DNA of 34,932 bases, taken from sequence record SRR20825019_1299; one strand, written 5' to 3'. Numbering within the stretch: position 1 is the first letter of the stretch; every line of letters starts with the position of its first letter. The translations under genes were made by a program, and so were the position numbers. The notes under the pieces are model-generated. The model searched no databases. It saw only the letters and a program-made list of their open reading frames with translations, and was not told the origin of the DNA. Positions 11,785 to 26,137 of the stretch are shown one piece after another.

Positions 11785-11819
11785 AGCTTTAAGCTTTAAG
11801 CTTACAGCCTTAAGCTAAT
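11785..11819. repeat. Heptamer tandem array, paaE/paaA junction
   Basis: AGCTTTA AGCTTTA AGCTTAC AGCCTTA AGCTAAT fills almost the whole spacer. Confidence 0.85.
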
Positions 11820-11822
11820 AGT

Positions 11823-12779
11823 ATGAATGAAAAGGAAATAAAGAATTTAGAGGAAATTTTTGAAGCTCGCATAGCGCGTGATGAAAAAATAGAGCCGAAA
11901 GATTGGATGCCAGAAAAATACCGACAAACGCATATTCGGCAAATGAGCCAACACGCACATTCCGAAATTATTGGGATGCTTCCTGAAGGAAACTGGATTA
12001 CTCGAGCGCCTTCTTTACGAAGAAAAGCGGCATTGCTTGCGAAAGTTCAGGATGAAGCTGGCCACGGTCTTTACTTGTATTCAGCTTGTGAAACTTTAGG
12101 GATTTCTAGAGATGAATTGTATGAACAACTACATAGTGGAAAGGCAAAATACTCTTCAATTTTCAATTACCCCACCATCACTTGGGCAGATATGGGCGCG
12201 ATAGGTTGGTTGGTAGATGGTGCAGCAATTATAAATCAGGTACCGCTTTGTAATACTTCATTCGGACCTTATGCACGTGCAATGGTGCGAGTTTGTAAGG
12301 AAGAAAGTTTTCACCAGCGCCAAGGTTTCGAAATTATGCTAACCCTTTGTCGTGGCACTGAAGAGCAAAAAGCAATGGCGCAAGATGCGCTTAATCGTTG
12401 GTGGTGGCCAAGTTTAATGATGTTGGGACCAACTGATGCGGAATCCATTCACACCGAACAATCGATGAAATGGAAGTTGAAACGAAAAAGTAACGACGAA
12501 TTACGTCAGCAATTTATAGATCAAACTGTGCCACAAGCAGATCTTTTAGGGATTACAGTTCCAGATCCAGATTTGAAATGGAATGAAGAAACAGGTCATT
12601 ATGATTTTGGTGCAATAAACTGGGATGAATTTTGGCAAGTGGTAAAAGGCCATGGTCCTTGTAATAAAGAGCGAATGAAAGCGAGAGTTGATGCATGGGA
12701 AAATGGAGAATGGGTTCGCGATGCGGCTATGGCATACGCAGAAAAAAATACAACTAAAAAAGTAGCAAAAGCAAGTTAA
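11823..12779 (+). CDS. paaA: 1,2-phenylacetyl-CoA epoxidase subunit A
   Basis: [18 protein letters not shown], di-iron motifs QDEAGHG and KEESFH. Confidence 0.97.
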
Positions 12780-12780
12780 A

Positions 12781-12844
12781 TAGACGTAAAGCGTGAGATT
12801 TAATACGTGAATAAAGTGTCTAAAATCTAAAATCTAATGTCTGA
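12781..12844. repeat. Empty inverted heptamer array pair, paaA/paaB junction
   Basis: Left TAGACGT AAAGCGT GAGATTT AATACGT; right TGTCTAA AATCTAA AATCTAA TGTCTGA (reverse complement TTAGACA/TTAGATT). paaB ATG lies in the right arm. Confidence 0.7.
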
Positions 12845-13130
12845 TAATAAAAAAAACTGGCCCCTTTGGGAAATATTTGTCCGCAGTAAAAATGGATTAG
12901 AGCATCGTCATTTTGGTAGCCTTCATGCAACCGATGCAGAAATGGCAATGGAAAATGCGCGCGATGTTTACACACGTAGAAACGAAGGTGTGAGTATTTG
13001 GGTGGTGGAAAGTAAAAATATTACCGCTTCAAATCCACAAGATAATGGTGAAATGTTTGAGCCTGCACAAGATAAAGTATACCGTCACCCCACTTTTTAT
13101 GATTTACCAGACGAGGTGAAGCATATGTAA
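12837..13130 (+). CDS. paaB: 1,2-phenylacetyl-CoA epoxidase subunit B
   Basis: WPLWEIFVRS..GSLHA..ARDVYTRRNEGVSIWVV..YRHPTFY. Confidence 0.97.
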   Translation: MSDNKKNWPLWEIFVRSKNGLEHRHFGSLHATDAEMAMENARDVYTRRNEGVSIWVVESKNITASNPQDNGEMFEPAQDKVYRHPTFYDLPDEVKHM

Positions 13131-13142
13131 GTTGAAAGGGGG

Positions 13143-13579
13143 TTAGGAAATAGGTATTTGGAATTTGTGATTATGAATAGTAAATATCATTTTAAGTTTG
13201 AAGATTTAAATGTCTACCAAAAAGCGATAGATTTTGGAGAATTAATTCATGCTCAAGTTTTAAAATTCCCTCAATACGAATTGTATGCGCTAACTTCTCA
13301 ATTTAGAAGAGCAGCAGATTCAATTGCTTTAAATATTTCCGAAGGATATCCTGGAAGCGACCCTCAATTCATTAAACATATTAATTATGCTATATATAGT
13401 TCTAACGAGTGTGTTTCTTGTAGTACAAAAGCAAAAAGAAGAAGTTATATTTCTAATGAAGAAGATGAAGAAAATAGAAAGTGTTTATCAGAACTAACAA
13501 AAATGCTTTCATCTTTAAGAAATAAAATTAAAGAACGAACTAATGCCTAATCCCACAATACCTAATGCCTTATTACAAA
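13143..13579 (+). mobile_element. Putative cassette 1: four-helix-bundle gene between inverted heptamer arrays
   Basis: Left arm TTAGGAA ATAGGTA TTTGGAA TTTGTGA TTATGAA (13143-13177); right arm TGCCTAA TCCCACAA TACCTAA TGCCTTA TTACAAA (13544-13579). Mobility is inferred. Confidence 0.6.
13173..13550 (+). CDS. Four helix bundle protein (23S rRNA intervening-sequence protein / Avd-like family)
   Basis: FEDLNVYQKA..FPQYELYALTSQFRRAADSIALNISEG..F...A..S..E signature. ATG 13173 preferred over TTG 13158, which only translates the repeat arm. Confidence 0.9.
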   Translation: MNSKYHFKFEDLNVYQKAIDFGELIHAQVLKFPQYELYALTSQFRRAADSIALNISEGYPGSDPQFIKHINYAIYSSNECVSCSTKAKRRSYISNEEDEENRKCLSELTKMLSSLRNKIKERTNA

Positions 13580-14334
13580 TGAAAAATCAAAATTTATACA
13601 ATTACATCCTTACAATTGCAGACAATTCTTTGATTCTTGCACAACGATTAGGTGAGCTTTGTGGGCACGGACCTAATTTGGAAACCGATATAGCACTTAC
13701 TAATATTTCGTTAGATTTATTAGGGCAAACAAGAAGCTACTACCAATATGCTGCAAAAATTTCCGAAGAAAATAAAACAGAAGACGATATTGCTTTCCTA
13801 AGAATTGAAAGAGAATATAAAAATTGCCTGCTTGTTGAACAACCAAATACCCATTTTGGATATGTAATTGGAAGACAGTTTTTGTTCGATGTTTATCATT
13901 TGTTGCTAATGGAAAAATTGCAAGATAGTAAAGATGAAATTCTAACTTCAATAGCCAAAAAAGGAATTAAGGAAGTAAGTTATCACAAACGATTTTCTGG
14001 TGATTGGGTGAAGCGTTTAGGAGATGGAACTGAGGAAAGCAACCAAAAAATGCAAGAAGCAATCAATGACCTTTGGCGATTTACGGATGAACTTTTTTAT
14101 ATCACAGAAGCTGAAAAAACAATGATTGAAGAAGGTATTGGTATTGATATTTCAGCCTTTAAAGAAAAATATTACGCCGAAGTTTCTGAGTTGTTAGAAG
14201 AAGCAACACTTACTGTTCCTGAAAATAAATATTTTACAAAAGGCGGGAAAGAAGGAATTCACAGCGAACATATGGGCTATCTACTCGCAGAATTGCAATA
14301 TATGCAACGTACGTACCCGAATATGACTTGGTAG
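13579..14334 (+). CDS. paaC: 1,2-phenylacetyl-CoA epoxidase subunit C
   Basis: ADNSLILAQRL.E.CGHGP.LE.DIA, KEVSYH, G.HSEHMGYLLAELQYMQR.YP..W. Start moved to ATG 13579 because the upstream 12 codons are repeat arm. Confidence 0.95.
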   Translation: MKNQNLYNYILTIADNSLILAQRLGELCGHGPNLETDIALTNISLDLLGQTRSYYQYAAKISEENKTEDDIAFLRIEREYKNCLLVEQPNTHFGYVIGRQFLFDVYHLLLMEKLQDSKDEILTSIAKKGIKEVSYHKRFSGDWVKRLGDGTEESNQKMQEAINDLWRFTDELFYITEAEKTMIEEGIGIDISAFKEKYYAEVSELLEEATLTVPENKYFTKGGKEGIHSEHMGYLLAELQYMQRTYPNMTW

Positions 14335-14787
14335 TCAATTCTCAACTAACAATTTTCAATTCTAAAAAAATAATTATGGAAAGGAATTTTGATTTAGAAG
14401 ATAGACTTATAGATTTTGCAATTATTTGTATAAAGTTATTTGCAAAAGTTGAATACAATTATGCTTTAGACCATTTGTCAAAAACAACTAATAAAGTCTT
14501 CAACTGGAACCGCTTTAAATTATGGAGAAGTACAAGGAGCGGAGTCTGCTAAAGATTTTATTTAAAATGGGCATTGTACTTAAAGAGTTAAAAGAGTCCA
14601 AAGTAAATTTGAAAATTCAAATTGGAACCGAAATATTAAAAGATATAGAGAAGGCTCAATTTGGTTTAAAAGAATGTGAAGAATTAGTGGCGATTTTCGC
14701 TAAAAGTATAAAAACTGCAAAAGCAAAAAAATAATTAAGCATTGAATATTGTTAGTTGAAAATTGAGCCTTGAAAATTGAATATTTA
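14335..14787 (+). mobile_element. Putative cassette 2: four-helix-bundle pseudogene between inverted heptamer arrays
   Basis: Left TCAATTC TCAACTA ACAATTT TCAATTC (14335-14362) matches the reverse complement of GCATTGA ATATTGT TAGTTGA AAATTGA (14739-14766) at 25/28; the right arm continues to about 14787. Mobility is inferred. Confidence 0.65.
14376..14734 (+). pseudogene. Four helix bundle protein gene with two frameshifts
   Basis: Joined translation MERNFDLEDRLIDFA..DHLSK / QLIKSSTGTALNYGEVQGAESAKDFI / KMGIVLKELKESKVNLKI..EELVAIFAKSIKTAK; shifts at the A-run 14480-14484 and at about 14563. Confidence 0.88.
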
Positions 14788-15270
14788 AATATCGAAAGTC
14801 ATTTAATTGAAACATTATCATCCGTTTCTGATCCGGAAATTCCTGTGCTTTCAGTTTTAGATTTGGGTGTTATTCGTGAAGCAGTTGAGGAAAATGGTAT
14901 TGTGAACATAAAGTTGACGCCAACCTATTCTGGCTGCCCAGCAATGGATGTAATTGGAGATGATTTAAGAACGGCTTTTTTAGAAATTGGTAAAGAAGCA
15001 AAGGTTGAGTTAATCCTTTCACCAGCTTGGTCCACAGATTGGATTAGTGAAGAAGGGCTCCTAAAGATGGAGGAATATGGCATTGCCAGACCACTATCAG
15101 AACTTCACGATAAAGATGTTTTGTTAGGAGATAAAAAACACGTAAAATGTCCGCAATGCGGAAGTACAAATACCCATTTAGTTAGTCAATTTGGTTCTAC
15201 TGCATGCAAAGCACTTTTTAAATGTGACGATTGCCTAGAGCCGTTTGATTATTTTAAATGTTTGAAATAA
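14770..15270 (+). CDS. paaD: 1,2-phenylacetyl-CoA epoxidase subunit D
   Basis: V.DPEIPVLSV.DLG, TPTYSGCPA, WSTDWI, CPQCGS..FGSTACKALFKCDDC.EPFDYFK. TTG start lies in the repeat arm and is uncertain. Confidence 0.93.
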   Translation: MKIEYLNIESHLIETLSSVSDPEIPVLSVLDLGVIREAVEENGIVNIKLTPTYSGCPAMDVIGDDLRTAFLEIGKEAKVELILSPAWSTDWISEEGLLKMEEYGIARPLSELHDKDVLLGDKKHVKCPQCGSTNTHLVSQFGSTACKALFKCDDCLEPFDYFKCLK

Positions 15271-15355
15271 AATGAATAATGAATAATGAAAAATGAAAAA
15301 TGAAAAAGCTTATTAAAAAACTTCATCATTTAGTTCTTCAGGTTCAATATTAAAT
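15271..15355. repeat. Empty inverted heptamer array pair, paaD/paaG junction
   Basis: Left AATGAAT x2 then AATGAAA x3 (15271-15305), starting right after the paaD stop; degenerate right arm CTTCATC ATTTAGT TCTTCAG GTTCAAT ATTAAAT (15321-15355). Confidence 0.8.
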
Positions 15356-15361
15356 AATATT

Positions 15362-16144
15362 ATGAGTAAAAGCATAACTACCCTTATAGAAAACAAAGTA
15401 GCAACTTTAACCTTAAACCGGCCAGAGGTTTTTAATAGTTTCAACCGTGAAATGGCGTTGTTACTACAAACCGAATTGGACGCTGCTGAAAAAAATCCAG
15501 ATGTTCGCGCAATTATAATTACAGGAAATGGAAAAGCATTTTGTGCAGGACAGGATTTAAAAGAAGTTACATCGCCTGAATTGAACCCTGGTTTCAAAAA
15601 AATTCTGGAGGAACATTACAATCCAATTATTTCCCGTATTCGAAATATTGAAAAACCGATAATTGGAGCAATTAATGGTGTAGCAGCTGGAGCTGGTGCA
15701 AATATTGCTTTGGCGTGCGATGTAGTTATTGCTTCTGAAAACGCAAGTTTTATTCAAGCTTTTAGTAAAATTGGCTTGGTTCCGGACAGTGCAGGCACAT
15801 TCTTTTTGCCCCGTTTAATTGGTTTTCAAAAAGCATCAGCTTTAATGATGTTGGGCGATAAAGTTTCTGCCGAACAGGCGGAAAAACTTGGGATGGTTTA
15901 TAAAGTAGTTTCTTTAGAAAACTTTATTGAAGAAGTAAACAATATAGCTTTAATAATGGCAAATATGCCTACCAAAGCATTGGGATTAACCAAACGTTTG
16001 CTAAATAATTCAATGCAAAATTCTTTGGAAGAACAACTAAATATGGAGAGCAAACTTCAAATAGAAGCTGCCCAAAGTGAAGATTATGCAGAAGGAGTTG
16101 ATGCATTTGTGAGCAAACGAAAGCCAAATTTTAAAGGAAAATAA
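15362..16144 (+). CDS. paaG: 2-(1,2-epoxy-1,2-dihydrophenyl)acetyl-CoA isomerase (crotonase family)
   Basis: AFCAGQDL, GVAAGAGANIALACD, QAFSKIGLVPDSAG with the PaaG-type catalytic Asp; operon context. Confidence 0.9.
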   Translation: MSKSITTLIENKVATLTLNRPEVFNSFNREMALLLQTELDAAEKNPDVRAIIITGNGKAFCAGQDLKEVTSPELNPGFKKILEEHYNPIISRIRNIEKPIIGAINGVAAGAGANIALACDVVIASENASFIQAFSKIGLVPDSAGTFFLPRLIGFQKASALMMLGDKVSAEQAEKLGMVYKVVSLENFIEEVNNIALIMANMPTKALGLTKRLLNNSMQNSLEEQLNMESKLQIEAAQSEDYAEGVDAFVSKRKPNFKGK

Positions 16145-16232
16145 TTGACACCTTGCTTATAGAAAACAATGAATTATGTTTAATTTTTGTTGCGAGTATT
16201 AAAACTTCAACAAAAAAATAATATTTAATAAT

Positions 16233-17438
16233 TTGGAAAATCAAAAATCAGAAATTGGTAATCAACAATCGTTAATCAAGTTTGTTGGAATTATAGGAAG
16301 CGGAACAATGGGAAGTGGTATTGCGCAAGTAGCCGCCACTGCTGGGTGTTCTGTGAAATTATACGATACAAATGATGAAGCTTTAGAAAAAGCTAAAGCA
16401 GCTTTGGAAAAAATAATGAGTCGTTTGGTGGAGAAGGGAAAAATTGATTCCAAAGAAAAAGAACGAATTCAGGGTAATATTAAATATGTAAACTCTCTTA
16501 AAGATTTAAAAGATTCAGATTTAACAATTGAAGCAATTGTTGAAAATTTAGCTGTTAAAAAGAATGTTTTTTCAACCTTAGAAAAATTTGTTTCCGAGAA
16601 ATGTATCATTGCTTCAAACACATCTTCATTGTCAATCGCATCAATTGCTTCGTCACTTGAAAAACCAGAGCGTTGCGTTGGGATTCACTTTTTTAATCCA
16701 GCGCCTCTAATGAAGTTGGTGGAGGTAATTCCCGCAATACAAACTTCCGAAGAAACACTTCAAAAATCTGTAGAAACTATAAAAAATTGGGAAAAAACGG
16801 TTGCCGTTGCTAAGGACACCCCAGGTTTTATTGTAAATCGGGTAGCGCGTCCATTTTATGGTGAGGCCTTGCGTATTTATGAAGAAGGAATTGCCGATTT
16901 TGCAACTATTGATGATGCAATGAAAGAAATTGGTAATTTTAGAATGGGCCCCTTTGAGTTAATGGATTTTATAGGAAATGATGTTAATTATACCGTGACC
17001 GAAACCGTTTTTGAGGCATTTTATTACGATCCGCGATACAAGCCTTCCTTTACCCAAAAACGTTTTTCCGAAGCGGGTTACTTAGGAAGAAAATCTGGCC
17101 GTGGCTATTATAATTATTCCGAAAATGCAGAAAAAAAGCAAGCTGTTATAAACGATGGATTAAATGTTGAAGTTGAGGTTTTTGATAGAATATTAGTAAT
17201 GCTAATCAATGAGGCTGCTGATGCACTTTTTTGGAATATAGCTTCTGCGGAAGATATTGATAATGCAATGACCAAAGGTGTTAATTACCCAAAAGGTTTG
17301 TTAGCTTGGGCAAATGAAAAAGGTATCGATTGGTGTGTAAATAAAATGGATGAATTATACGCTACTTATCATGAAGATAGATATCGTTGTTCTCCGTTAC
17401 TTCGGAAAATGAACCTTGAAAACAAAACATTCTTTTAA
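16233..17438 (+). CDS. paaH: 3-hydroxyacyl(adipyl)-CoA dehydrogenase
   Basis: GIIGSGTMGSGIA Rossmann motif, SNTSSLSI, GIHFFNP, duplicated C-terminal domain; TTG start uncertain. Confidence 0.9.
   Translation: MENQKSEIGNQQSLIKFVGIIGSGTMGSGIAQVAATAGCSVKLYDTNDEALEKAKAALEKIMSRLVEKGKIDSKEKERIQGNIKYVNSLKDLKDSDLTIEAIVENLAVKKNVFSTLEKFVSEKCIIASNTSSLSIASIASSLEKPERCVGIHFFNPAPLMKLVEVIPAIQTSEETLQKSVETIKNWEKTVAVAKDTPGFIVNRVARPFYGEALRIYEEGIADFATIDDAMKEIGNFRMGPFELMDFIGNDVNYTVTETVFEAFYYDPRYKPSFTQKRFSEAGYLGRKSGRGYYNYSENAEKKQAVINDGLNVEVEVFDRILVMLINEAADALFWNIASAEDIDNAMTKGVNYPKGLLAWANEKGIDWCVNKMDELYATYHEDRYRCSPLLRKMNLENKTFF
16239..16280. repeat. Heptamer array inside the paaH 5' end
   Basis: AATCAAA AATCAGA AATTGGT AATCAAC AATCGTT AATCAAG. 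Confidence 0.8.
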
Positions 17439-17845
17439 TGCTAAATTCTAAAAAAATACCTGTAAAAATGCTAAGTCAAGACGCTTTTAGTTCTTGGCTC
17501 GGGATAGAGATTTTAGAAGTAGAAAAAGGTAGATGTAAAGTTGCAATGACTATACGGAAAGAGATGCTTAACAGTATGAATAAAGCCCACGGCGGCATTA
17601 GTTATAGTTTAGCAGATACCGCTTTCGGTTTTGCTGCAAATACCCACGGAAAATACGCAGTGTCCATAGAAACGTCAATAAATCATATTGAAGCACTTAA
17701 TGAAGGCGATTATCTTACAGCGGAATCGGTTATTGAAAAAGTAAATAATAAACTCGGTTTTAATATTGTTGAAGTAAAACGTGGAACTGAATTAGTTGCA
17801 CTTTTTAAAGGTGTAGTTTATAGAACAAGTAGGGATTGGGAATAA
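17438..17845 (+). CDS. paaI: PaaI family hotdog-fold thioesterase
   Basis: MLN....AHGGISYSLADTAFG motif; coupled to paaH by TAATG overlap. Confidence 0.9.
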   Translation: MLNSKKIPVKMLSQDAFSSWLGIEILEVEKGRCKVAMTIRKEMLNSMNKAHGGISYSLADTAFGFAANTHGKYAVSIETSINHIEALNEGDYLTAESVIEKVNNKLGFNIVEVKRGTELVALFKGVVYRTSRDWE

Positions 17846-17928
17846 TAGAATAGACTATGTTTTTAAAACTAAAAAAATCAAATTTAAAACTTAATTTTAA
17901 TCATCAATAATCTAAAAATATTCAAATT

Positions 17929-18789
17929 ATGAAATGGCAAGGTAGAAGACAAAGTGGTAATGTTGATGATCGACGTGGAATGAGTAAAGGTAAGATGGCT
18001 GCTGGTGGCGGAATAGCAGTAACGTTAATTGTGCTTGCCTTACAGTTTTTTGGAGGTGAAACTGGACAGCAACTAGCTCCAATTGTTGAGCAAATTGGAA
18101 ATAGCCGAACAACACAACAGGTAGAACAAAGAGAACTTACCGCTCAAGAAAAGGAGGTTGGAAACTTTGTAGCTACTGTTTTAGCAGATACAGAAGATGT
18201 TTGGGCGCAAATTTTCAGTCAAAATAATATCGGAACATACCAAGAGCCAACAATGGTTTTATTTACAGATGCTGTAAGTTCAGGCTGTGGAAATGCTAGC
18301 TCAGCTTCTGGACCGTTTTATTGTCCTGCCGATCAGAACCTGTATATGGATCTGACATTTTTTGATGAATTAAAAACTCGTTTCGGCGCTAAAGGTGGAG
18401 ATTTCGCAATTGCTTATGTAACCGCTCATGAAATTGGACATCACGTACAAACACTACTCGGAACATCCAAAAAAGTATCGCAGCTTCAGCGACAAACTAC
18501 TAAAGTAGAAGCTAATAAGCTTTCTGTTGCGTTAGAGTTACAAGCTGATTTTTATGCGGGACTTTGGGCACATTATAACCAAGAATATTTAGAAGAAGGA
18601 GATATTGAAGAAGCGCTGAGTGCAGCAAATGCAGTAGGTGATGACGCAATTCAAAAAAGAATGCAGGGCGATATTGTACCCGATAGTTTTACACATGGAA
18701 GCTCAGAACAGCGTATGAAATGGTTTATGAAAGGCTATAAAACTGGAGATATAAAACAGGGAGATACCTTTTCAGAAATATTAAATTAA
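17929..18789 (+). CDS. Neutral zinc metallopeptidase (YpfJ-like)
   Basis: MKWQGRRQS.NV.DRR, TM helix, GPFYCPAD, AHEIGHH (HExxH), ELQAD, FTHGSS.QR. Confidence 0.9.
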   Translation: MKWQGRRQSGNVDDRRGMSKGKMAAGGGIAVTLIVLALQFFGGETGQQLAPIVEQIGNSRTTQQVEQRELTAQEKEVGNFVATVLADTEDVWAQIFSQNNIGTYQEPTMVLFTDAVSSGCGNASSASGPFYCPADQNLYMDLTFFDELKTRFGAKGGDFAIAYVTAHEIGHHVQTLLGTSKKVSQLQRQTTKVEANKLSVALELQADFYAGLWAHYNQEYLEEGDIEEALSAANAVGDDAIQKRMQGDIVPDSFTHGSSEQRMKWFMKGYKTGDIKQGDTFSEILN

Positions 18790-18794
18790 ATAGG

Positions 18795-18861
18795 AACGAT
18801 TGAAGAATATCCAATTTATAAGTATGAATTTTTAATTTTATTTCAACAATCGTTAATCAAA
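18795..18861. repeat. Degenerate empty inverted heptamer pair upstream of paaJ
   Basis: Left AACGATT GAAGAAT; right TTTCAAC AATCGTT AATCAAA. AACGATTG (18795-18802) is the exact reverse complement of CAATCGTT (18847-18854). Confidence 0.6.
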
Positions 18862-18870
18862 AAAATCTTT

Positions 18871-20073
18871 ATGGAAGCATATATAATTGACGGAATTAGA
18901 ACTCCAATAGGAAGTTATCAAGGCACACTTAGTGCAGTTCGCACGGACGATTTGGCTGCTCTAGTTATTGCCGAAATAGTAAAAAGAAATCCAACAATTC
19001 CAAAAGAAGCTTATGACGATGTGATTTTGGGATGCGCCAATCAAGCGGGTGAAGATAACAGAAATGTTGCTCGAATGGCAGCATTGTTAGCAGGCTTACC
19101 TGTAAATGTTCCTGGTGAAACAGTAAACAGACTTTGCAGCAGCGGACTTTCAGCAATAATCCATGCAAATAGAGCTATAAAAGCGGGTGATGGCGATATT
19201 TTTATTTCTGGCGGTGTTGAAAACATGACACGCGGTCCATACGTAATTGCAAAACCTTCAAAAGCTTTTGGAACAGATTCTAAAATGTATGATTCTAGCT
19301 TTGGGTGGCGATTCATTAATACAAAAATGGCTGAAATGTATGGCACGGATGGCATGGGAAATACCGCTGAAAACCTAGTTGAAAAACACAACATCAATCG
19401 GGAAGACCAAGATGTCTTTGCATATAATAGTCAGCGGAAAGCTGCGGATGCTCAAAAAAGTGGGCGTTTAGCAAAAGAAATCGTTTCCGTTGAAATTCCA
19501 CAGCGCAAAAAAGATTCAATTATTTTTAAGGATGATGAATTTATTCGCCCCGAAACCACCAAAGAAATTTTAGCAAAATTACGTCCAGCTTTTAAAAAAG
19601 ATGGAAGTGTTACCGCCGGAAATTCTTCAGGATTAAACGATGGTGCTGCAGCTACGATTATCGCTTCTGAAGCTGCTGTGAAAAAATATAATTTAAAACC
19701 AATTGCACGAATTGTAAGCTCTGCAGTTGTTGGTGTAGAACCTCGAATTATGGGTATTGGTCCTGTGGAAGCTTCAAATAAAGCACTTAAAAAAGCAGGT
19801 TTAAAAATGGAGGATATGGATATCATTGAGCTTAATGAAGCTTTTGCTTCACAAGCATTGGCGTGTATCCGCGAATGGGGATTGAAAGATGACGACCCAC
19901 GCATAAATCCAAATGGGGGTTCAATCGCTATTGGCCATCCGCTGGGTGTTACGGGAGCACGCATCGCTTATTCCGCAGCATTAGAGCTTCAACTGCAAAA
20001 TAAACGTTACGCATTAATAACCATGTGTATTGGAGTTGGCCAAGGATATGCTGCTATAATTGAACGTGTATAA
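18871..20073 (+). CDS. paaJ: 3-oxoadipyl-CoA / 3-oxo-5,6-dehydrosuberyl-CoA thiolase (PaaJ/PcaF)
   Basis: GCANQAGEDNRNVARM, NRLCSSG, NEAFA, GHPLG, CIGVGQG. Confidence 0.92.
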   Translation: MEAYIIDGIRTPIGSYQGTLSAVRTDDLAALVIAEIVKRNPTIPKEAYDDVILGCANQAGEDNRNVARMAALLAGLPVNVPGETVNRLCSSGLSAIIHANRAIKAGDGDIFISGGVENMTRGPYVIAKPSKAFGTDSKMYDSSFGWRFINTKMAEMYGTDGMGNTAENLVEKHNINREDQDVFAYNSQRKAADAQKSGRLAKEIVSVEIPQRKKDSIIFKDDEFIRPETTKEILAKLRPAFKKDGSVTAGNSSGLNDGAAATIIASEAAVKKYNLKPIARIVSSAVVGVEPRIMGIGPVEASNKALKKAGLKMEDMDIIELNEAFASQALACIREWGLKDDDPRINPNGGSIAIGHPLGVTGARIAYSAALELQLQNKRYALITMCIGVGQGYAAIIERV

Positions 20074-20174
20074 ATTTTTAAACACAATAAGATGAGGTAT
20101 TTAAAATGGGTTATTCGTTAATAGATATTTAATATATGTATTTTTAAATTATATTTACAAAAAATAAATATATA

Positions 20175-20420
20175 ATGGCAACATTCACTTCTTCTTTACC
20201 CGATAAACTATTAAATGATTTAGCAAAAGTAGCTACCGAGCTTCAATTGCCAAAGAATAAAATAATTGAAAAAGCTTTAAAAATATATTTAGAACAATTG
20301 GATCGTGCTGCATATCTTAAATCCTATAAAGAAATGGCTGAAGATGTAGATATGTTAGTTTTGGCTGAAGAAGGAATGGCAGATTATTTCAAAACAATTA
20401 GCGAGGACGAGATGTTATGA
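20175..20420 (+). CDS. Ribbon-helix-helix (CopG-like) antitoxin
   Basis: 81 aa with strand-helix-helix N-terminus and acidic tail LAEEGMADY; ATGA overlap with the toxin. Confidence 0.8.
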   Translation: MATFTSSLPDKLLNDLAKVATELQLPKNKIIEKALKIYLEQLDRAAYLKSYKEMAEDVDMLVLAEEGMADYFKTISEDEML

Positions 20421-20749
20421 AGCAAGGCGAAATTTATGAAGTTTACCTCGACCCTATAAAAGGAAGTGAACAAGGCGGAAGAAGGCCAGCTGTAATCATT
20501 TCTGGGAATTTAGCAAACGAAAACCTTAATACGGTGATTATTTGCCCAATGACATCCAAACTAAAAAATTACCATGGAAATTTAATTGTCCAACCCAATA
20601 ATATAAATGGTCTAAAAAATACTTCTGAAGTAATGACCATACACATTTGTTCCATATCAAAAGAGCGATTACAGTCAAAATGTGGAATGTTAGACAAGAC
20701 GGAATTTAATCTGGTAATTGAAAGCTTACAGAAAATAATTAAATATTAA
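20417..20749 (+). CDS. mazF: PemK/MazF family type II toxin (endoribonuclease)
   Basis: GEIYEVYLDP.KGSEQGGRRPAVIIS..N..VIICPMTS..ISKERL. Confidence 0.9.
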   Translation: MKQGEIYEVYLDPIKGSEQGGRRPAVIISGNLANENLNTVIICPMTSKLKNYHGNLIVQPNNINGLKNTSEVMTIHICSISKERLQSKCGMLDKTEFNLVIESLQKIIKY

Positions 20750-20760
20750 AATAGATTTAC

Positions 20761-23292
20761 GTGCAAAAAACACAACATTATATACTAGGAAACTGGGCAG
20801 AAGGTAAAGGTGAAGGCTCGCCAATACTAGATTCTGTAACTGGTGAACATTTTACAAGTGTAACTACTGAAGGGCTTGATGTTCCTGAAATTTTGCAATA
20901 CGGACGCGACAAAGGAGAAGTGCTTCGGAAAATGACCTTTCAAGAACGTGGTTTGATGCTAAAAAAACTTGCAATGTATCTTACCAAAAAGAAACAGCAA
21001 TTTTACGAAATCAGTTACCGAACTGGTGCCACAAAAATTGACAGTTGGATTGATATTGAAGGCGGATTTGGAAATTTATTTGCCAACGCTTCGCTTCGAA
21101 AATTATTTCCAAACCAATCATTTCATGTGGAAGGTGATCCTATAGACCTTTCTCGTGGCGGACGTTTTATGGCGCACCACATTATGGTTCCGCGCGAAGG
21201 TGTGGCGGTTCATATCAACGCTTTTAACTTTCCAGTTTGGGGAATGTTAGAAAAATGTGCAGTAAACTGGATGGCAGGAATGCCAGCAGTTGTTTTGCCT
21301 GCACCACAAACAGCTTATTTAGCTGAAGCCGTTGTAAAAGAAATTATTGCTTCAGGAATTCTCCCTGAAGGTTCATTACAGCTTATCAGTGGAACAGCAA
21401 AAACTATTTTAGATACCGTAGAATCTCAAGATGTGGTTACCTTTACAGGTTCTGCAAGCACTGGAAGAATTCTAAAAAAACACCCTCAGTTGATTGAAGA
21501 ATCGGTTCCTTTTACAATGGAAGCAGATAGCCTTAACGCATCCATTTTAGGTGAAGATGCCGTTCCAGGAACTCCAGAATTTGATCTTTTTATTAAAGAA
21601 GTTCGAAATGAAATGACCGTGAAATGCGGACAAAAATGTACAGCGATTAGAAGAATCATCGTTCCAGAAAAATTGATAGAAGATGTGCAAATCGCACTTG
21701 GAAAACAATTGGATAGAGTTACAATTGGTGACCCACGCTTAAAAGAGGTTAGAATGGGGGCATTGGTAAACGATGCTCAACGCAATTCCGTAAAAGAACA
21801 GATTTCAAAAATAACGCAAACTGCAGAAATTGTGTACGGCAATTATGAAGACTTTGAAGTAAGTGGAGCCGACTCCAAAAAGGGCGCTTTTATAAAACCA
21901 ATGCTACTTCGCGAAAACAATCCGTTGCAAAATGAAGCTGCACACATAACCGAAGCATTTGGACCTGTAAGCACGTTAATGCCTTATAAAAATTTGGAAG
22001 AAGCAATCAAGCTTTCAAAAATGGGGAAGGGTTCTTTGGTTAGTTCCATTGTTACCAACGATAATAAAATTGCAAAGGAGTATACTATTTCCTCAGCAAC
22101 ACATCATGGGCGTATTTTAGTGCTAAATCGTGAAAGCGCCAAACAAAGTACAGGGCACGGATCGCCATTGCCTAATCTTATTCACGGCGGTCCAGGACGT
22201 GCTGGTGGTGGTGAAGAAATGGGTGGAGTTCGTGGCGTAAAACATTATTTGCAACGTTGCGCTATTCAAGGCTCGCCTTCTACATTAACCGAAATTACAG
22301 GGATTTATCAGCCAAAAGCAGATTATAAAGAATCCGAAAACCACCCATTTGCATATCATTGGGAAGACATTGAGCCGGGAATGTCAATAAAAACACATAA
22401 GCGTACCATTACCGATACAGATATTATCAATTTTGCAAATCTTACTTGGGATCATTTTTATGCGCATACAGATATTACTTCATTAGATGGAAGTATTTTT
22501 GAAAAACGTACCGCACATGGGTATTTTATACTTGCCGCCGCCGCAGGTTTATTTGTGTATCCAAACAAAGGCCCAGTTGCTGCCAATTACGGCCTTGAGG
22601 AATGTAGATTTCTTCGCCCAATTTATCACAATGATACTGTTTATGTGCGTTTAACGTGTAAACAAAAAATTGACCGTGAGCAAAAAGGTACCGAACTACC
22701 TTCAGGAATTGTGAAATGGTATGTGGAAGTTTTTGATGCGAATATTGATGAAAGTTCTTCGGAAGAAGAAAAGCAAGGCGAATTGCTTGCTATTGCTACC
22801 ATTTTAACAATGGTGCAAAAAAAGCAGACTGTTTTTGCTGAAATGACTTCAGAGTCGATTTCGAAATATTTGAACAATCTTTCAGAAAATTCAAAACCAA
22901 AATGGGGAACAATGCAACCGCAGCAAATGCTAGAGCATTTAGAATATACCTACCGAATTGCTTCTGGAGAAATTCAGGATTTCGAGATTGCAACTCCTGA
23001 AAAATATTTGATAGAAACACATTCAACACTTTATAATTATAGAAAAATGCCAAAAGAATACGATTTTCCTTTGGCGGAAGAATCAAAAATAAGGGAAACA
23101 AAACACTCAGATTTGGAAACAGCAAAATTAAAAATGCTGGAAGCACGAGCTGATTATTTAAAATATTTCAAACAAAATCCAGATGCAAAAACCAAAAATG
23201 TAGTGTTTGGTGAATTGAATAAATTTGAATGGTACTTATTGGAACGAAAGCATTTGAATCACCATTTTGAACAATTTAATTTAATAGACTAA
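20761..23292 (+). CDS. paaZ: Bifunctional oxepin-CoA hydrolase / aldehyde dehydrogenase with extra C-terminal DinB-like domain
   Basis: ALDH (HINAFNFPVWG, MEADSLN, GQKCTAIRR, EAFGPV), MaoC hotdog (DHFYAH, AHG, ANYG) and a ~150-aa tail; GTG start. Confidence 0.95.
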   Translation: MQKTQHYILGNWAEGKGEGSPILDSVTGEHFTSVTTEGLDVPEILQYGRDKGEVLRKMTFQERGLMLKKLAMYLTKKKQQFYEISYRTGATKIDSWIDIEGGFGNLFANASLRKLFPNQSFHVEGDPIDLSRGGRFMAHHIMVPREGVAVHINAFNFPVWGMLEKCAVNWMAGMPAVVLPAPQTAYLAEAVVKEIIASGILPEGSLQLISGTAKTILDTVESQDVVTFTGSASTGRILKKHPQLIEESVPFTMEADSLNASILGEDAVPGTPEFDLFIKEVRNEMTVKCGQKCTAIRRIIVPEKLIEDVQIALGKQLDRVTIGDPRLKEVRMGALVNDAQRNSVKEQISKITQTAEIVYGNYEDFEVSGADSKKGAFIKPMLLRENNPLQNEAAHITEAFGPVSTLMPYKNLEEAIKLSKMGKGSLVSSIVTNDNKIAKEYTISSATHHGRILVLNRESAKQSTGHGSPLPNLIHGGPGRAGGGEEMGGVRGVKHYLQRCAIQGSPSTLTEITGIYQPKADYKESENHPFAYHWEDIEPGMSIKTHKRTITDTDIINFANLTWDHFYAHTDITSLDGSIFEKRTAHGYFILAAAAGLFVYPNKGPVAANYGLEECRFLRPIYHNDTVYVRLTCKQKIDREQKGTELPSGIVKWYVEVFDANIDESSSEEEKQGELLAIATILTMVQKKQTVFAEMTSESISKYLNNLSENSKPKWGTMQPQQMLEHLEYTYRIASGEIQDFEIATPEKYLIETHSTLYNYRKMPKEYDFPLAEESKIRETKHSDLETAKLKMLEARADYLKYFKQNPDAKTKNVVFGELNKFEWYLLERKHLNHHFEQFNLID

Positions 23293-23294
23293 TT

Positions 23295-23351
23295 GAGCCA
23301 AGAACCAAAAATAACGACAGAAAAATCGTGATACTTAGTTCTTGATTCTTG
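23295..23351. repeat. Empty inverted heptamer pair downstream of paaZ
   Basis: Left GAGCCAA GAACCAA AAATAAC; right AATCGTG ATACTTA GTTCTTG ATTCTTG (reverse complement CAAGAAT CAAGAAC). Confidence 0.7.
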
Positions 23352-23362
23352 AATCAAAATTT

Positions 23363-24115
23363 ATGAATGAACCATACGTAAAACAAGAAATAAAAAATAA
23401 CATTGCAACCATCGAGTTTTTTCACCCAGCACATAATAGCTTGCCAGGAGATTTGCTGGCGAAACTCGCAAATTCAATTACGGAAGCTGGAAATAATACT
23501 GAAGTAAAAGTGATTATTTTAAAAAGCGGTGGTGATCGTACTTTTTGCGCTGGAGCAAGTTTTACTGAACTGATAAATATTAACGATGCACAAACCGGGA
23601 AAATATTTTTTAGCGGTTTTGCAAATGTTATAAATGCAATGCGCAAATGCCCAAAATTTATTATTGGTAGAATTCAAGGGAAAACCGTTGGTGGTGGCGT
23701 TGGTGTTGCTTCAGCTACAGATTACTGTATGGCAACAAAATTTGCAGCAATAAAACTAAGCGAATTAAATGTAGGAATTGGCCCATTTGTGGTTGGTCCT
23801 GCTGTGGAAAGAAAATTAGGTTTAAGCGCAATGAGTCAAATAGCGATTGATGCCAATACTTTTTATGAAGCTGAATGGGCAAAACAAAAAGGGTTGTACA
23901 ATCAGGTGTATGATTCTGTTGAAGAACTTGATGAAGCCACGCAGAAATTTGCTGAAAATCTTTGCAATTACAATCCCGAAGCAATGAAAGAAATGAAGAA
24001 AGTATTTTGGAGCGGGACGGAAGATTGGGATGAATTGTTGGCTGAACGCGCAGTAATTTCAGGTAGATTAGTGCTTTCAGATTTTACAAAAGAAACGCTT
24101 AAAAGGTTTGAATAA
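23363..24115 (+). CDS. Enoyl-CoA hydratase/isomerase family protein
   Basis: TFCAGAS, VGGGVG, LSELNVGIGP. ATG 23363 preferred over TTG 23342, which lies in the repeat arm. Confidence 0.85.
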   Translation: MNEPYVKQEIKNNIATIEFFHPAHNSLPGDLLAKLANSITEAGNNTEVKVIILKSGGDRTFCAGASFTELININDAQTGKIFFSGFANVINAMRKCPKFIIGRIQGKTVGGGVGVASATDYCMATKFAAIKLSELNVGIGPFVVGPAVERKLGLSAMSQIAIDANTFYEAEWAKQKGLYNQVYDSVEELDEATQKFAENLCNYNPEAMKEMKKVFWSGTEDWDELLAERAVISGRLVLSDFTKETLKRFE

Positions 24116-24117
24116 TA

Positions 24118-24185
24118 AATACCGAATTTAGAATCATGAATGACGAAGTATTTCTGAATTCGATTTTTAAAATTCATCATTCAAT
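24118..24185. repeat. Empty inverted heptamer pair upstream of paaY
   Basis: Left AATACCG AATTTAG AATCATG AATGACG (GAAT every 7 nt); right TTTCTGA ATTCGAT TTTTAAA ATTCATC ATTCAAT (ATTC-type, 7-nt phase). Confidence 0.7.
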
Positions 24186-24850: not shown

Positions 24851-26137
24851 ATGAATAAAACAGAATTTAAAATGCCCAAAATGGGCGAATCAATTACCGA
24901 AGGAACCATCATCAATTGGCTTGTAAATGAAGGTGATTCTTTTGAGGAAGGCGATATTATTTTGGAAGTTGCCACCGATAAAGTAGATAATGAAGTGCCT
25001 GCGCCAGCTTCTGGAAAAATACTTGAACATAAATATAAAGCCAAAGATGTTGTTCCAGTAGGCGAAGTGATTGCTATTTTAGAACTTTCTGGTGATAAAG
25101 TAATTTCAAAATCTTCAAAAGCAACTTCAGAAAAAAGTGTACTTAAAAGCGATACTTCCGAAAAACATAAAATACAAAAGCAAGCTTCTAAAGCTACTGC
25201 ATTTAAAGTAAATGAAAATGTGTTTATTTCACCTTTGGTGGACAGCATTGCTCGAAAAAATCATATTAGTTATGAAGAATTAGCCCGAATTCCTGGAACT
25301 GGAAAAGATGGGCGTTTGCGCAAAAGTGATGTTTCAGAATACCTTAATAACGGTCGTCCGTTTCAGTTTACACAAGCTGTTTCTGAAACTTCTGGTTTTC
25401 AGGTTCCAGATTTAAAATTTGATAAAGGAAAAGGGAAAATAGTTGAAATGGATCGCATGCGCCAGATGATTGCAGATCATATGGTTTTTAGTGCAAGCAC
25501 CGCACCCCACGTTACAGCGTATGTGGAAGCAGATCTTACTGAAATGGTAAACTGGCGGAATAAAAATAAAGCTGATTTTCAGAAAAAATACAATGAAAAG
25601 CTAACGTTTACGCCATTGTTTATAGAAGCCGTGGCAAAAGCTATTCAAGATTTTCCGATGATAAACTCCACGCTCGATGGTACAAATATCATTGTAAAAG
25701 AAGAAATAAATATTGGCATGGCGACTGCATTACCTTCAGGGAATTTAATAGTTCCTGTGGTGAAAAATGCAGCTAAGAAGAATTTAAAAGAATTGGCAGA
25801 AACCACAAATGAGTTGGTTGGAAAATCCCGTGAAAATAAATTGAAAGGCGACGACACAAAAGGAAGTACCTTTACAATTAGTAATGTGGGAACCTTTGGA
25901 AGCCTAATGGGAACGCCGATTATTAACCAACCTGAAGCTGCAATTTTGGCTACAGGAATCATAAAAAAACGTGCAGAAGTTATGGAGCGCGAAAATGGCG
26001 ATGCTATTGAAATTCGCCACATGATGTATTTGTCTTTATCCTTTGATCATAGAATTGTTGACGGTTATTTAGCGGGCTCTTTCTTAAGAAGAATAGCAGA
26101 TAATATGGAACAGTTTGATGCAAAAAGAAAAATTTAA
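24851..26137 (+). CDS. 2-oxoacid dehydrogenase E2 (dihydrolipoamide acyltransferase)
   Basis: Lipoyl domain EVATDKV, E3-binding GTGKDGRLRKSDV, catalytic DHRIVDG. Confidence 0.92.
   Translation: MNKTEFKMPKMGESITEGTIINWLVNEGDSFEEGDIILEVATDKVDNEVPAPASGKILEHKYKAKDVVPVGEVIAILELSGDKVISKSSKATSEKSVLKSDTSEKHKIQKQASKATAFKVNENVFISPLVDSIARKNHISYEELARIPGTGKDGRLRKSDVSEYLNNGRPFQFTQAVSETSGFQVPDLKFDKGKGKIVEMDRMRQMIADHMVFSASTAPHVTAYVEADLTEMVNWRNKNKADFQKKYNEKLTFTPLFIEAVAKAIQDFPMINSTLDGTNIIVKEEINIGMATALPSGNLIVPVVKNAAKKNLKELAETTNELVGKSRENKLKGDDTKGSTFTISNVGTFGSLMGTPIINQPEAAILATGIIKKRAEVMERENGDAIEIRHMMYLSLSFDHRIVDGYLAGSFLRRIADNMEQFDAKRKI

What the first reader, a model, noticed from the sequence alone, without database searches (positions are those of the whole stretch)
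11785..24185. Candidate system: inverted heptamer arrays, filled or empty, at most paa operon junctions
Seen: 7-bp-period degenerate arrays at nine junctions: E/A (AGCTTTA), A/B (TTAGAYN), B/C (TTAGGNA), C/D (NAATTGA), D/G (AATGAAW), G/H and pre-J (AATCNNN), Z/crotonase (CAAGAAY) and pre-Y (GAAT/ATTC). Seven are inverted pairs: two enclose a four-helix-bundle gene and five enclose only about 5-35 nt. Two are lone arms. The period is conserved while the unit sequence mostly differs, and I saw no such arrays in 1-10 kb or 28-35 kb. Established: this protein family includes ORFs inside 23S rRNA intervening sequences, which sit in RNase III-cleaved stems, and DGR Avd, an RNA-binding pentamer. Inference: a transposase-less cassette that lands between a stop codon and the next start, with full, decaying and empty states side by side. 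The arms could fold into an mRNA stem that loops out the passenger gene or sets processing sites. I cannot establish novelty without a literature search.
Basis: partly seen in the sequence, partly recalled or inferred. Interest (0 to 1): 0.88.

Follow-up and report, generated by a model that had tools for sequence, protein, structure and literature searches.

The report
Heptamer-armed gene cassettes in paa operon
Runs of a 7-base repeat sit between most genes of a flavobacterial phenylacetate-degradation operon; two pairs enclose small four-helix-bundle genes, others are leftovers or gene-less copies, and in relatives such repeats are found almost only in genomes that carry this gene family.

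Summary
Period-7 arrays are concentrated at the junctions of a Flavobacteriaceae paa operon: 7 of the 9 named junctions beat dinucleotide shuffles.

- **Intact cassette:** one inverted pair encloses an intact PF05635 four-helix-bundle gene, HB1.
- **Decaying cassette:** another pair encloses a copy with two frameshifts, HB2.
- **Truncated cassette:** the G/H "lone arm" still carries the last ~23 codons of a lost HB gene.

In 80 related paa loci, HB genes sit at seven different junctions. They are always co-oriented with the operon and always between inverted 6-8-nt arrays. Related HB genes with the same arm unit occur at different junctions.

All 10 HB genes of Aequorivita antarctica are packaged this way. 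Three HB-bearing genomes have 32-62 heptamer arrays per 400 kb, and three HB-free genomes have 0-4.

Best reading: these are cassettes like the gene-bearing intervening sequences (IVS) of 23S rRNA, together with their gene-less derivatives. How they move is unknown.

Limits on that reading:
- Most arrays in a relative are single and carry no HB remnant.
- The gene-less stems here are weak.
- Arm mismatches show no RNA-wobble bias.

This scan has noted the HB-plus-heptamer cassette many times on other DNA. Six literature searches found no paper that describes it.

The parts
11785..11816 (+). E/A junction array, AGCTTTA x4.6. The unit is self-complementary and no gene is enclosed.
   Evidence: TRF period 7. 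Lag-7 16 of 21, shuffle p 0.000. The fold is no better than shuffles, z +0.12.
12780..12837 (+). A/B gene-less hairpin. The left arm is degenerate (GTGAGAT-type). The right arm is TCTAAAA x2.7 (12819-12837) and runs into the PaaB ATG.
   Evidence: TRF. Shuffle p 0.006. The same junction holds a longer TGAGAYN hairpin in L008 and a filled TGAGNNN cassette in L002.
13139..13172 (+). Left arm of the HB1 cassette (TTAGGNA-type, G-rich).
   Evidence: Lag-7 segment 13144-13172. Shuffle p 0.000. Pairs with the right arm in the minimum-energy fold.
13173..13550 (+). HB1, an intact four-helix-bundle gene (125 aa from ATG 13173).
   Evidence: PF05635 1.5e-25. TIGR02436 1e-25. PDB 2gsc 7.9e-10. dN/dS 0.069 against the A. 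antarctica ortholog.
13541..13575 (+). Right arm of the HB1 cassette (CCTAATN, C-rich). It overlaps the HB1 stop and ends just before the likely PaaC start at ATG 13579.
   Evidence: Lag-7 segments 13539-13599. Shuffle p 0.012. Sequence read.
14335..14366 (+). Left arm of the HB2 cassette (TCAATTN). It starts right after the PaaC stop.
   Evidence: TRF period 21 at 14335-14375. Shuffle p 0.02. Closing stem.
14376..14734 (+). HB2, a four-helix-bundle pseudogene. The profile match is split over three reading frames, which means two frameshifts.
   Evidence: Local HB profile: positions 1-36 in frame 0, 37-63 in frame 1 and 50-118 in frame 2. The second half matches TIGR02436 at 2.2e-4, below the cut-off.
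14741..14789 (+). Right arm of the HB2 cassette (ATTGAAA x7).
   Evidence: TRF. Shuffle p 0.022. Arm alignment score 48. Stem of about 26 bp, z -2.42.
15269..15307 (+). D/G gene-less hairpin, left array (AAAATGA x5.6). It starts at the PaaD stop.
   Evidence: TRF score 64. Lag-7 20 of 21, shuffle p 0.000.
15322..15348 (+). D/G gene-less hairpin, right arm (TTCATCA ... TTCAAT).
   Evidence: Pairs with the left array in the minimum-energy fold, z -1.62, 11 of 200 shuffles as good. This arm family surrounds HB genes in L014, L057 and L033.
16147..16221 (+). G/H junction: remnant of the last ~23 codons of an HB gene (…LLIENNELCLIFVASIKTSTKK, then stop).
   Evidence: Local HB profile positions 96-118, E 0.0012 here and 6.8e-6 at the same junction in L002. 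Found again. Intact HB genes sit at this junction in L006, L048, L067 and L080.
16234..16277 (+). G/H right arm only (AATCNNN). It lies inside the mechanically called PaaH ORF, so the true PaaH start is probably downstream.
   Evidence: TRF 16237-16255. Lag-7 16234-16264. Shuffle p 0.024.
18795..18867 (+). ZnP/J (pre-J) gene-less hairpin of the GATTNNN/AATCNNN family: AACGATTGAAGAAT ... TTTCAACAATCGTTAATCAAAAAAATC.
   Evidence: Stem of 8+3 bp. Periodicity is not significant alone, p 0.116. L002 has a longer hairpin of the same family at this junction.
23298..23355 (+). Z/ECH hairpin: CCAAGAACC ... AGTTCTTGATTCTTGAATC, with two units on the right side.
   Evidence: 7-bp stem, z -3.58, 1 of 200 shuffles as good. 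Periodicity p 0.124.
24122..24185 (+). ECH/PaaY gene-less hairpin of the GAATNNN/NNNATTC family.
   Evidence: Shuffle p 0.022. 11-bp stem, z -1.02.

Best explanation
The arrays are the arms of small cassettes built like the gene-bearing intervening sequences of 23S rRNA. Each cassette is a PF05635 four-helix-bundle (HB) gene held between inverted arrays of a short tandem unit. The unit is usually 7 nt and sometimes 6 or 8.

These cassettes settle exactly between the stop codon of one cistron and the start of the next, in the direction of the operon. This paa operon shows the whole series:
- an intact, conserved cassette (HB1, B/C);
- a frameshifted one (HB2, C/D);
- a 5'-truncated one (G/H);
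- gene-less array hairpins or arrays (E/A, A/B, D/G, ECH/Y, and more weakly pre-J and Z/ECH).

Shown:
- the arrays are non-random;
- the genes belong to PF05635;
- cassettes with their arms are present or absent at orthologous junctions;
- related HB genes with the same arm unit occur at different junctions;
- gene decay and truncation occur;
- heptamer arrays as a class co-occur with HB genes at genome level.

Inferred:
- the two arms pair (in the transcript or in single-stranded DNA) and loop out the gene, as in rRNA intervening sequences, where RNase III cuts the stem;
- arrays grow and shrink by slippage;
- new junctions are colonised either by recombination between arrays of one family or by an unknown HB-dependent step;
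- gene-less arrays are derivatives, or non-autonomous copies, of the cassettes.
For: **Arrays are beyond chance.** In 80 related loci there are 156 lag-7 segments against 6-52 at other lags, with 95 at lag 14.

**HB genes.**
- 30 HB ORFs lie in 22 of the 80 loci.
- All 30 are on the operon strand and all are inside the paa block. None is in the flanks.

**Arms.**
- All 10 PF05635 genes of A. antarctica lie between inverted arrays, and 2 of the 10 are in the paa operon.
- Arm complementarity beats 95% of shuffles in 28 of 40 cassettes, and beats non-cognate arm pairs in 24 of 40.
- The HB tree tracks arm unit and period. The TTAGG clade sits at B/C, H/I and ZnP/J. The GAAT/ATTC clade sits at C/D, G/H and I/J.
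- The left arm has G > C in 25 of 29 cassettes.

**Decay.** HB2 has two frameshifts. HB remnants lie at G/H in the window, L002 and L043, and at I/J in L010.

**States of one junction.** A/B is tight (0-13 nt) in L004, L006 and L010. It is a gene-less TGAGNNN hairpin in the window and L008. It is filled in L002.

**HB1 is under purifying selection.** dN/dS is 0.069.

**Genome-level link.**
- Lag-7 arrays per ~400 kb are 44, 32 and 62 in three HB-bearing genomes, against 0, 4 and 2 in three HB-free genomes.
- Over 76 genomes, the genome's HB count against gene-less arrays in its paa locus gives Spearman 0.45, p 3.7e-5.

**Precedent.** A true 23S IVS has heptamer direct repeats in its RNase III-cut stem (PMC4990558, passages read).
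Against: - **Most arrays in a relative are single.** 47 of the 62 arrays sampled in A. antarctica have no inverted partner within 600 nt.
- **Few remnants.** Only 3 places beyond intact genes show an HB remnant among 245 arrays, so descent from cassettes is unproven for most.
- **No cognate match.** Gene-less arrays do not match the arms of the HB genes of their own genome or locus better than foreign ones: 0.109 against 0.092, and Wilcoxon p 0.15.
- **Orphan families.** Some array families in A. antarctica (ACTGAAC, CTTACAG x16) have no HB partner.
- **No RNA signature.** Arm mismatches are 30 G.U-type against 30 A.C-type, with 127 transversions.
- **Weak pairing here.** The HB1 arms pair weakly and most gene-less stems do not beat shuffles.
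- **Exception to co-occurrence.** L040 has 3 arrays per 20 kb, yet no HB gene was found in its genome.
- **Relatedness is uncontrolled.** The genome comparison does not correct for relatedness, and many genomes are incomplete MAGs.
- **No mobility enzyme or mechanism** is identified.
Confidence: 0.55

Rival explanations
1. The arrays are ordinary slippage-made simple repeats or leader elements of intercistronic spacers. This is the known class of bacterial heptanucleotide repeats. HB genes merely tend to land or survive inside them, so the arrays are neither part of nor derived from a cassette.
For: - Heptanucleotide repeats are reported as the most abundant long simple repeats in most prokaryote genomes, with polymerase slippage proposed as the cause. 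This is Mrazek 2007 as summarised in PMC4679880, section 3.
- TAACTGA arrays lie just upstream of start codons, including in Aequorivita sublithincola (PMC4679880, section 12).
- In A. antarctica, 47 of 62 arrays are single and 43 of 62 lie between co-directional genes.
- Few arrays have HB remnants.
- Array units are not cognate to resident HB arms.
Against: - Three HB-free Flavobacteriaceae genomes have no lag-7 excess (0, 4 and 2 per 400 kb). Their counts at lags 5, 8, 10 and 11 are at or below those of the HB-bearing genomes, so they show no repeat excess at any period.
- The correlation over 76 genomes also argues against independence.
- Slippage alone does not explain why all 40 HB genes examined (10 of 10 in one genome) lie between inverted arrays.
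- It also does not explain why arm unit and period follow the HB clade across different junctions.
Confidence: 0.2
2. The HB proteins are trans-acting binders of the arrays, on RNA or single-stranded DNA. The arrays would be operon punctuation marks that the pentameric rings read to tune processing, stability or translational coupling between cistrons. The gene's own arms would be an autoregulatory site.
For: - Solved relatives have five identical chains in the entry (2gsc and 2rld), and the 2gsc protein is described as a homopentamer (PMC4990558).
- Arrays and HB genes co-occur at genome level.
- The arms have a strand polarity: G > C in the left arm in 25 of 29 cassettes.
- Arrays start at stop codons and end at start codons.
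- HB1 is under purifying selection.
Against: - No binding data exist.
- Gene-less arrays are not cognate to the HB arms of their own genome or locus.
Confidence: 0.15
3. Chance periodicity in AT-rich spacers, with no biological unit.
For: - The pre-J and Z/ECH arrays do not beat shuffles on periodicity.
- Several folds are no better than shuffles.
Against: - 9 of 14 paa spacers have p <= 0.024, against 2 of 12 other spacers below 0.05.
- The excess is specific to lag 7 in the window and in relatives.
Confidence: 0.02

Closest known systems
ORF-bearing intervening sequences (IVS) of 23S rRNA (Coxiella burnetii IVS with S23p; Leptospira, Brucella, Xanthomonas)
   Same: - A roughly 400-470-nt insert carries one PF05635/S23p four-helix-bundle ORF between terminal inverted repeats.
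- In Coxiella the 5' stem region holds 2-3 tandem GACAGAT heptamers, variable between strains. The RNase III cut lies at the first repeat (PMC4990558, passages read).
   Different: - The host site here is an mRNA intercistronic spacer, not helix 25 or 45 of 23S rRNA.
- No rRNA was found in the window (Rfam).
- Processing by RNase III is untested here.
- The arms are longer arrays, and gene-less copies exist.
Bacterial heptanucleotide tandem repeats: TAACTGA repeats (MacGregor 2015, PMC4679880), long simple sequence repeats (Mrazek 2007, as cited there), cyanobacterial STRR (Mazel 1990, recalled, not read)
   Same: - Tandem 7-nt units in intergenic regions, often ending a few nt before a start codon.
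- Units are family- and lineage-specific.
- Noted in Aequorivita and Gramella.
   Different: - Those papers describe direct repeats (one inverted pair in 170 sets) and propose translational regulators or slippage.
- The TAACTGA paper never mentions 23S (0 occurrences in the text search), and nothing I read in it links the repeats to PF05635 genes.
- Here all 40 HB genes lie between inverted arrays, and array abundance follows HB presence.
REP sequences with RAYT transposases, and MITEs
   Same: - Many gene-less hairpin repeats in spacers, plus a few gene-bearing copies flanked by the repeat in inverted orientation.
- Repeat and gene co-occur at genome level.
   Different: - The enclosed gene is a four-helix bundle with no known nuclease or transposase fold.
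- Y1 transposase genes (PF01797) do not track the arrays: present in 2 of 3 HB-bearing and 1 of 3 HB-free genomes.
- The arms are tandem arrays of varying unit, not one conserved palindrome.
Avd, the accessory protein of diversity-generating retroelements
   Same: It belongs to the same protein superfamily, a pentameric four-helix bundle that binds a reverse transcriptase and RNA. This is established knowledge and was not tested here.
   Different: - No reverse transcriptase is among the ORFs scanned in the window.
- PF00078 is present in only 1 of 3 HB-bearing genomes.
- The repeat scans showed no long template/variable-type repeat; I made no dedicated search for one.

Membership tests
PF05635 / TIGR02436 four-helix-bundle protein (23S rRNA IVS protein, S23p) | Sequence match above the curated cut-offs. 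| tested here: met
   HB1: Pfam 89.9 bits against a cut-off of 33.8, and TIGR02436 90.1 bits against 24. The HB2 halves match only a local profile (9e-12 and 6e-16) and TIGR02436 at 21.4 bits, below the cut-off.
PF05635 / TIGR02436 four-helix-bundle protein (23S rRNA IVS protein, S23p) | Relative with a solved pentameric four-helix-bundle structure. | tested here: met
   PDB 2gsc (XCC0516) at 7.9e-10 and 2rld at 6.4e-4, each with 5 chains. The oligomeric state of HB1 itself was not tested.
ORF-bearing 23S rRNA intervening sequence | Inserted in a 23S rRNA gene (helix 25 or 45). | tested here: not met
   The cassettes lie between the paaB/paaC and paaC/paaD coding genes. There is no rRNA match in the window.
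ORF-bearing 23S rRNA intervening sequence | Terminal inverted repeats that close a stem around the ORF. | tested here: met
   HB2: a stem of about 26 bp in the minimum-energy fold, z -2.42. HB1: only about 9-12 bp. 28 of 40 cassettes beat 95% of shuffles.
ORF-bearing 23S rRNA intervening sequence | Excision from the precursor RNA by RNase III. | not testable with these tools
   No RNA run holds the stretch. Needs RNA end-mapping.
Heptanucleotide tandem repeats (LSSR / STRR / TAACTGA type) | Tandem 7-nt units, intergenic, in excess over other periods. | tested here: met
REP/RAYT or MITE-type elements | A transposase (a Y1 tyrosine transposase for RAYT) that mobilises the repeats. | tested here: not met
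   None among the window ORFs scanned. PF01797 is absent from A. antarctica, which has 62 arrays per 393 kb.
Diversity-generating retroelement (Avd context) | An adjacent reverse transcriptase and a template/variable repeat pair. | tested here: not met
   No RVT domain in the window ORFs scanned. PF00078 is found in 1 of the 6 genomes tested.

The most novel reading that the evidence does not exclude
The long-unexplained heptanucleotide tandem arrays of bacterial genomes (STRR / long simple repeats / TAACTGA type) are made, spread or maintained by PF05635 four-helix-bundle cassettes. This would be a transposase-less mobile element whose only gene is a ring-forming nucleic-acid binder. It inserts hairpin-forming arrays precisely between cistrons and leaves gene-less arrays behind as operon punctuation.
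Probability: 0.2. Interest if true: 0.9.

Novelty: new variant of a known kind. Interest (0 to 1): 0.7.

Why it matters
PF05635/TIGR02436 is a very large family with no assigned function outside diversity-generating retroelements. Bacterial heptanucleotide repeats have likewise lacked an explanation since their description.

This one operon shows intact, frameshifted, truncated and gene-less states side by side. Relatives show the same junctions empty, hairpin-only or filled. At genome level the repeats are all but absent where the gene family is absent.

That ties the two puzzles together and makes them testable in a culturable flavobacterium, with:
- RNA end-mapping;
- an RNase III mutant;
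- binding assays of HB1 with its own arms;
- cassette-mobilisation assays.

It also matters for annotation. The arrays are swallowed by mechanical ORF calls here, for example the PaaH and PaaC starts. They also probably break assemblies.

Tried and rejected
- **Whole genome of the window:** not held. The closest relative, A. antarctica, was used instead.
- **RNA evidence:** no RNA holder is listed for the stretch.
- **Contigs of four DNA runs:** laying them showed no contig that joins across a cassette. Other contigs hit only the AATGAAW array itself.
- **Wobble test for an RNA stem:** 30 G.U-type against 30 A.C-type mismatches, so no signal.
- **Cognate test, own genome:** do a genome's gene-less arrays share words with its own HB arms more than with foreign arms? 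0.109 against 0.092 per HB gene, no difference.
- **Cognate test, within locus:** 0.097 against 0.056, Wilcoxon p 0.15, not significant.
- **HB remnants beside arrays:** 32 of 245 flank windows hit the HB profile. Nearly all are intact genes; only the window G/H, L002 G/H and L043 G/H are remnants.
- **Conserved inner-boundary motifs:** two candidates occur in only 2 and 8 of the 110 loci, so they are not a general signature.
- **Rfam at gathering threshold:** nothing in the window. A relative's non-coding stretch enclosed by arrays also gave nothing.
- **Y1 transposase and reverse transcriptase as hidden mobility genes:** neither tracks the arrays.
- **Target-site duplications:** I looked by eye. 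The AT-rich ends (for example TAATAG at both ends of the E/A array) do not allow a claim.
- **Literature:** six searches found no paper linking heptamer arrays to PF05635 genes. Supplementary tables of PMC4679880 could not be seen and may list more Aequorivita arrays.
Full report
**What is there.** The window carries a Flavobacteriaceae phenylacetate (paa) operon. Its PaaB is 98% identical to that of Aequorivita antarctica. The gene order is TetR, PaaE, A, B, HB1, C, HB2, D, G, H, I, a Zn-peptidase, J, an antitoxin plus MazF, Z, an enoyl-CoA hydratase and PaaY.
- HB1 (13173-13550) is a PF05635 / TIGR02436 four-helix-bundle protein. Its nearest solved relative is XCC0516, PDB 2gsc.
- HB2 (14376-14734) is the same kind of gene broken by two frameshifts. 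The profile match runs through three reading frames.

**Checking the observation.**
- Tandem Repeats Finder reports period-7 arrays only inside 11785-16255.
- A self-match scan gives 9 lag-7 segments against 0-4 at lags 4-12. Eight of them lie at paa junctions.
- Against 500 dinucleotide-preserving shuffles of each spacer, 9 of 14 paa spacers reach p <= 0.024. These are E/A, A/B, both flanks of HB1, both flanks of HB2, D/G, G/H and ECH/Y.
- pre-J (p 0.116) and Z/ECH (p 0.124) do not pass. Outside the operon, 2 of 12 spacers reach p < 0.05.
- The HB2 arms close a stem of about 26 bp in the minimum-energy fold (z -2.42). The HB1 arms pair over only about 9-12 bp.
- The gene-less pairs fold weakly. 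Only Z/ECH (z -3.6), and marginally D/G (z -1.6), stand out from shuffles.

**Relatives.** A PaaB search fetched 80 paa loci from 80 genomes.
- Lag-7 segments number 156 in these loci, against 6-52 at other lags and 95 at lag 14. They sit almost entirely at paa junctions, often as inverted pairs, with units that differ by junction and genus.
- A profile built from HB1 finds 30 HB ORFs in 22 loci. All are on the operon strand and inside the paa block. They lie at A/B, B/C, G/H, H/I, I/J, ZnP/J and ECH/Y.
- Every one has short tandem units on both sides in inverted orientation.
- Of 322 gene-less junctions of 35-250 nt, 57 have a lag-7 array, against 1-14 at other lags.
- The A/B junction shows three states. 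It is tight (0-13 nt) in L004, L006 and L010. It is a gene-less TGAGNNN hairpin in the window and L008. It is a filled cassette with TGAGNNN arms in L002.

**Decay.** The window's G/H spacer translates into the last ~23 residues of an HB protein, followed by the right arm only. The profile E-value is 0.0012 here and 6.8e-6 at the same junction in A. antarctica. Four relatives have an intact HB gene with GATTNNN/AATCNNN arms at this junction.

**Cassette as a unit.**
- Arm complementarity beats 95% of shuffles in 28 of 40 cassettes, and beats non-cognate arm pairs in 24 of 40.
- On the HB tree, clades share arm unit and period.
  - A TTAGG/CCTAA clade, which includes HB1, lies at B/C, H/I and ZnP/J.
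  - A hexamer clade lies at B/C.
  - A GATT/AATC clade lies at G/H.
  - A GAAT/ATTC clade, which includes HB2, lies at C/D, G/H and I/J.
  - Two cassettes have octamer arms.
- HB1 shares 74-79% identity with the copies at other junctions.
- The same junction (B/C) holds two unrelated clades in different genomes, which implies repeated colonisation.
- The left arm is G-rich (G > C) in 25 of 29 cassettes, so the arms have a polarity relative to the gene.
- HB1 is under purifying selection, with dN/dS 0.069 against the A. antarctica ortholog. That is similar to PaaD and PaaG.

**Genome scale.**
- A. antarctica has 10 PF05635 genes. All lie between inverted arrays, and 2 of them are in the paa operon.
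- In 393 kb of that genome there are 62 lag-7 arrays, 7 of them in the 11-kb paa operon. Only 15 have an inverted partner, and 43 lie between co-directional genes. Arrays therefore far outnumber HB genes.
- Three HB-free Flavobacteriaceae genomes have no lag-7 excess: 0, 4 and 2 arrays per 400 kb. Three HB-bearing genomes have 44, 32 and 62.
- Over 76 genomes, the genome's HB count correlates with the number of gene-less arrays in its paa locus: Spearman 0.45, p 3.7e-5. HB-free genomes (n 15) average 0.65 arrays per 20 kb, against 2.68 for HB-bearing genomes (n 61).
- Caveats: relatedness is not controlled, many genomes are MAGs, and L040 is an exception with 3 arrays and no HB found.
- Y1 transposases and reverse transcriptases do not track the arrays.

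**What did not fit.**
- Gene-less arrays are not closer to the HB arms of their own genome or locus than to foreign arms.
- Only 3 places among 245 arrays show remnants beyond intact genes.
- Arm mismatches show no excess of G.U over A.C (30 against 30).
- No RNA data exist for this organism, and contigs of four DNA runs show no cassette-less allele.

**Interpretation.** The best-supported reading is a family of IVS-like cassettes and their gene-less derivatives. Each cassette is an HB gene plus inverted arrays of a 6-8-nt unit. They colonise stop-to-start spacers of operons, and the paa operon is a hot spot. Pairing of the arms, RNase III processing, slippage and the mode of spread are inferences. 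The main rival is that the arrays are independent slippage repeats. That rival is weakened by the HB-free genomes but not excluded.

**Known and new.**
- Papers read describe S23p-bearing IVS in 23S rRNA, with heptamer repeats in the Coxiella stem (PMC4990558, passages).
- They also describe direct heptanucleotide repeats, including in Aequorivita (PMC4679880, abstract, sections 3 and 12, and passages).
- Six searches found no paper that links the repeats to PF05635 or describes such cassettes in operons.
- Earlier notes of this scan report the cassette on much other DNA, and the gene-array co-occurrence in Prevotella. I reproduced both independently here. Those notes are leads, not evidence.

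Noticed in passing
window 17929-18789 and 20175-20749: Two other small inserts interrupt the paa operon: a Zn-metallopeptidase (PF04228) between PaaI and PaaJ, and an antitoxin plus MazF pair between PaaJ and PaaZ. Both are present in some of the 80 related loci and absent in others (ZnP in L002, L003, L008, L013 and others; MazEF in L015, L043, L048). The operon therefore tolerates several kinds of insert.
   Followed up: partly
L002, L005, L006, L011, L020-L025, L034 and others, paa junctions: A second, GC-richer class of short palindromic elements occupies many junctions in relatives, of the type TGTCAYYCTGAGCG...GTCGAAGGG, or TTGTCCCCTTGAGGGGAC. They look REP-like and are distinct from the heptamer arrays.
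   Followed up: no
G001 contig C32, 21612-21977 (inside L104): Inverted CAAATYC/GRATTTG arrays enclose about 290 nt of non-coding sequence with GC-rich hairpins. It has no HB profile match and no Rfam match. This may be a cassette with non-protein cargo or a heavily decayed one.
   Followed up: partly
L080 about 12700-12730 (left arm of the G/H cassette): A GC-rich stretch of about 30 nt sits inside an otherwise regular GATTNNN array. The orthologous arm in L067 lacks it. This looks like a very small insertion into a heptamer array.
   Followed up: no
window 13543-13578 and 16233-16277: Mechanical ORF calls for PaaC and PaaH run upstream through cassette arms. The likely true starts are ATG 13579 for PaaC and a codon downstream of 16277 for PaaH. 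Arrays can inflate N-termini in annotation.
   Followed up: partly
L083 and L085 (A. antarctica HB loci): Some cassettes have a compound layout: left arm, short loop, right arm, HB gene, then a second right arm. This suggests a gene placed beside an existing hairpin, or duplication of an arm.
   Followed up: no
window 25404-25442: The one strong lag-7 segment outside the junctions lies inside the E2 acyltransferase gene (24851-26137). I did not look at what it encodes there.
   Followed up: no
L008 16221-16363; L076 13792-13937; G001 C63 53780-53907: Single arrays can reach about 20 units (130-146 nt), and the two arms of one cassette can differ four-fold in copy number. This points to fast expansion and contraction.
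   Followed up: no
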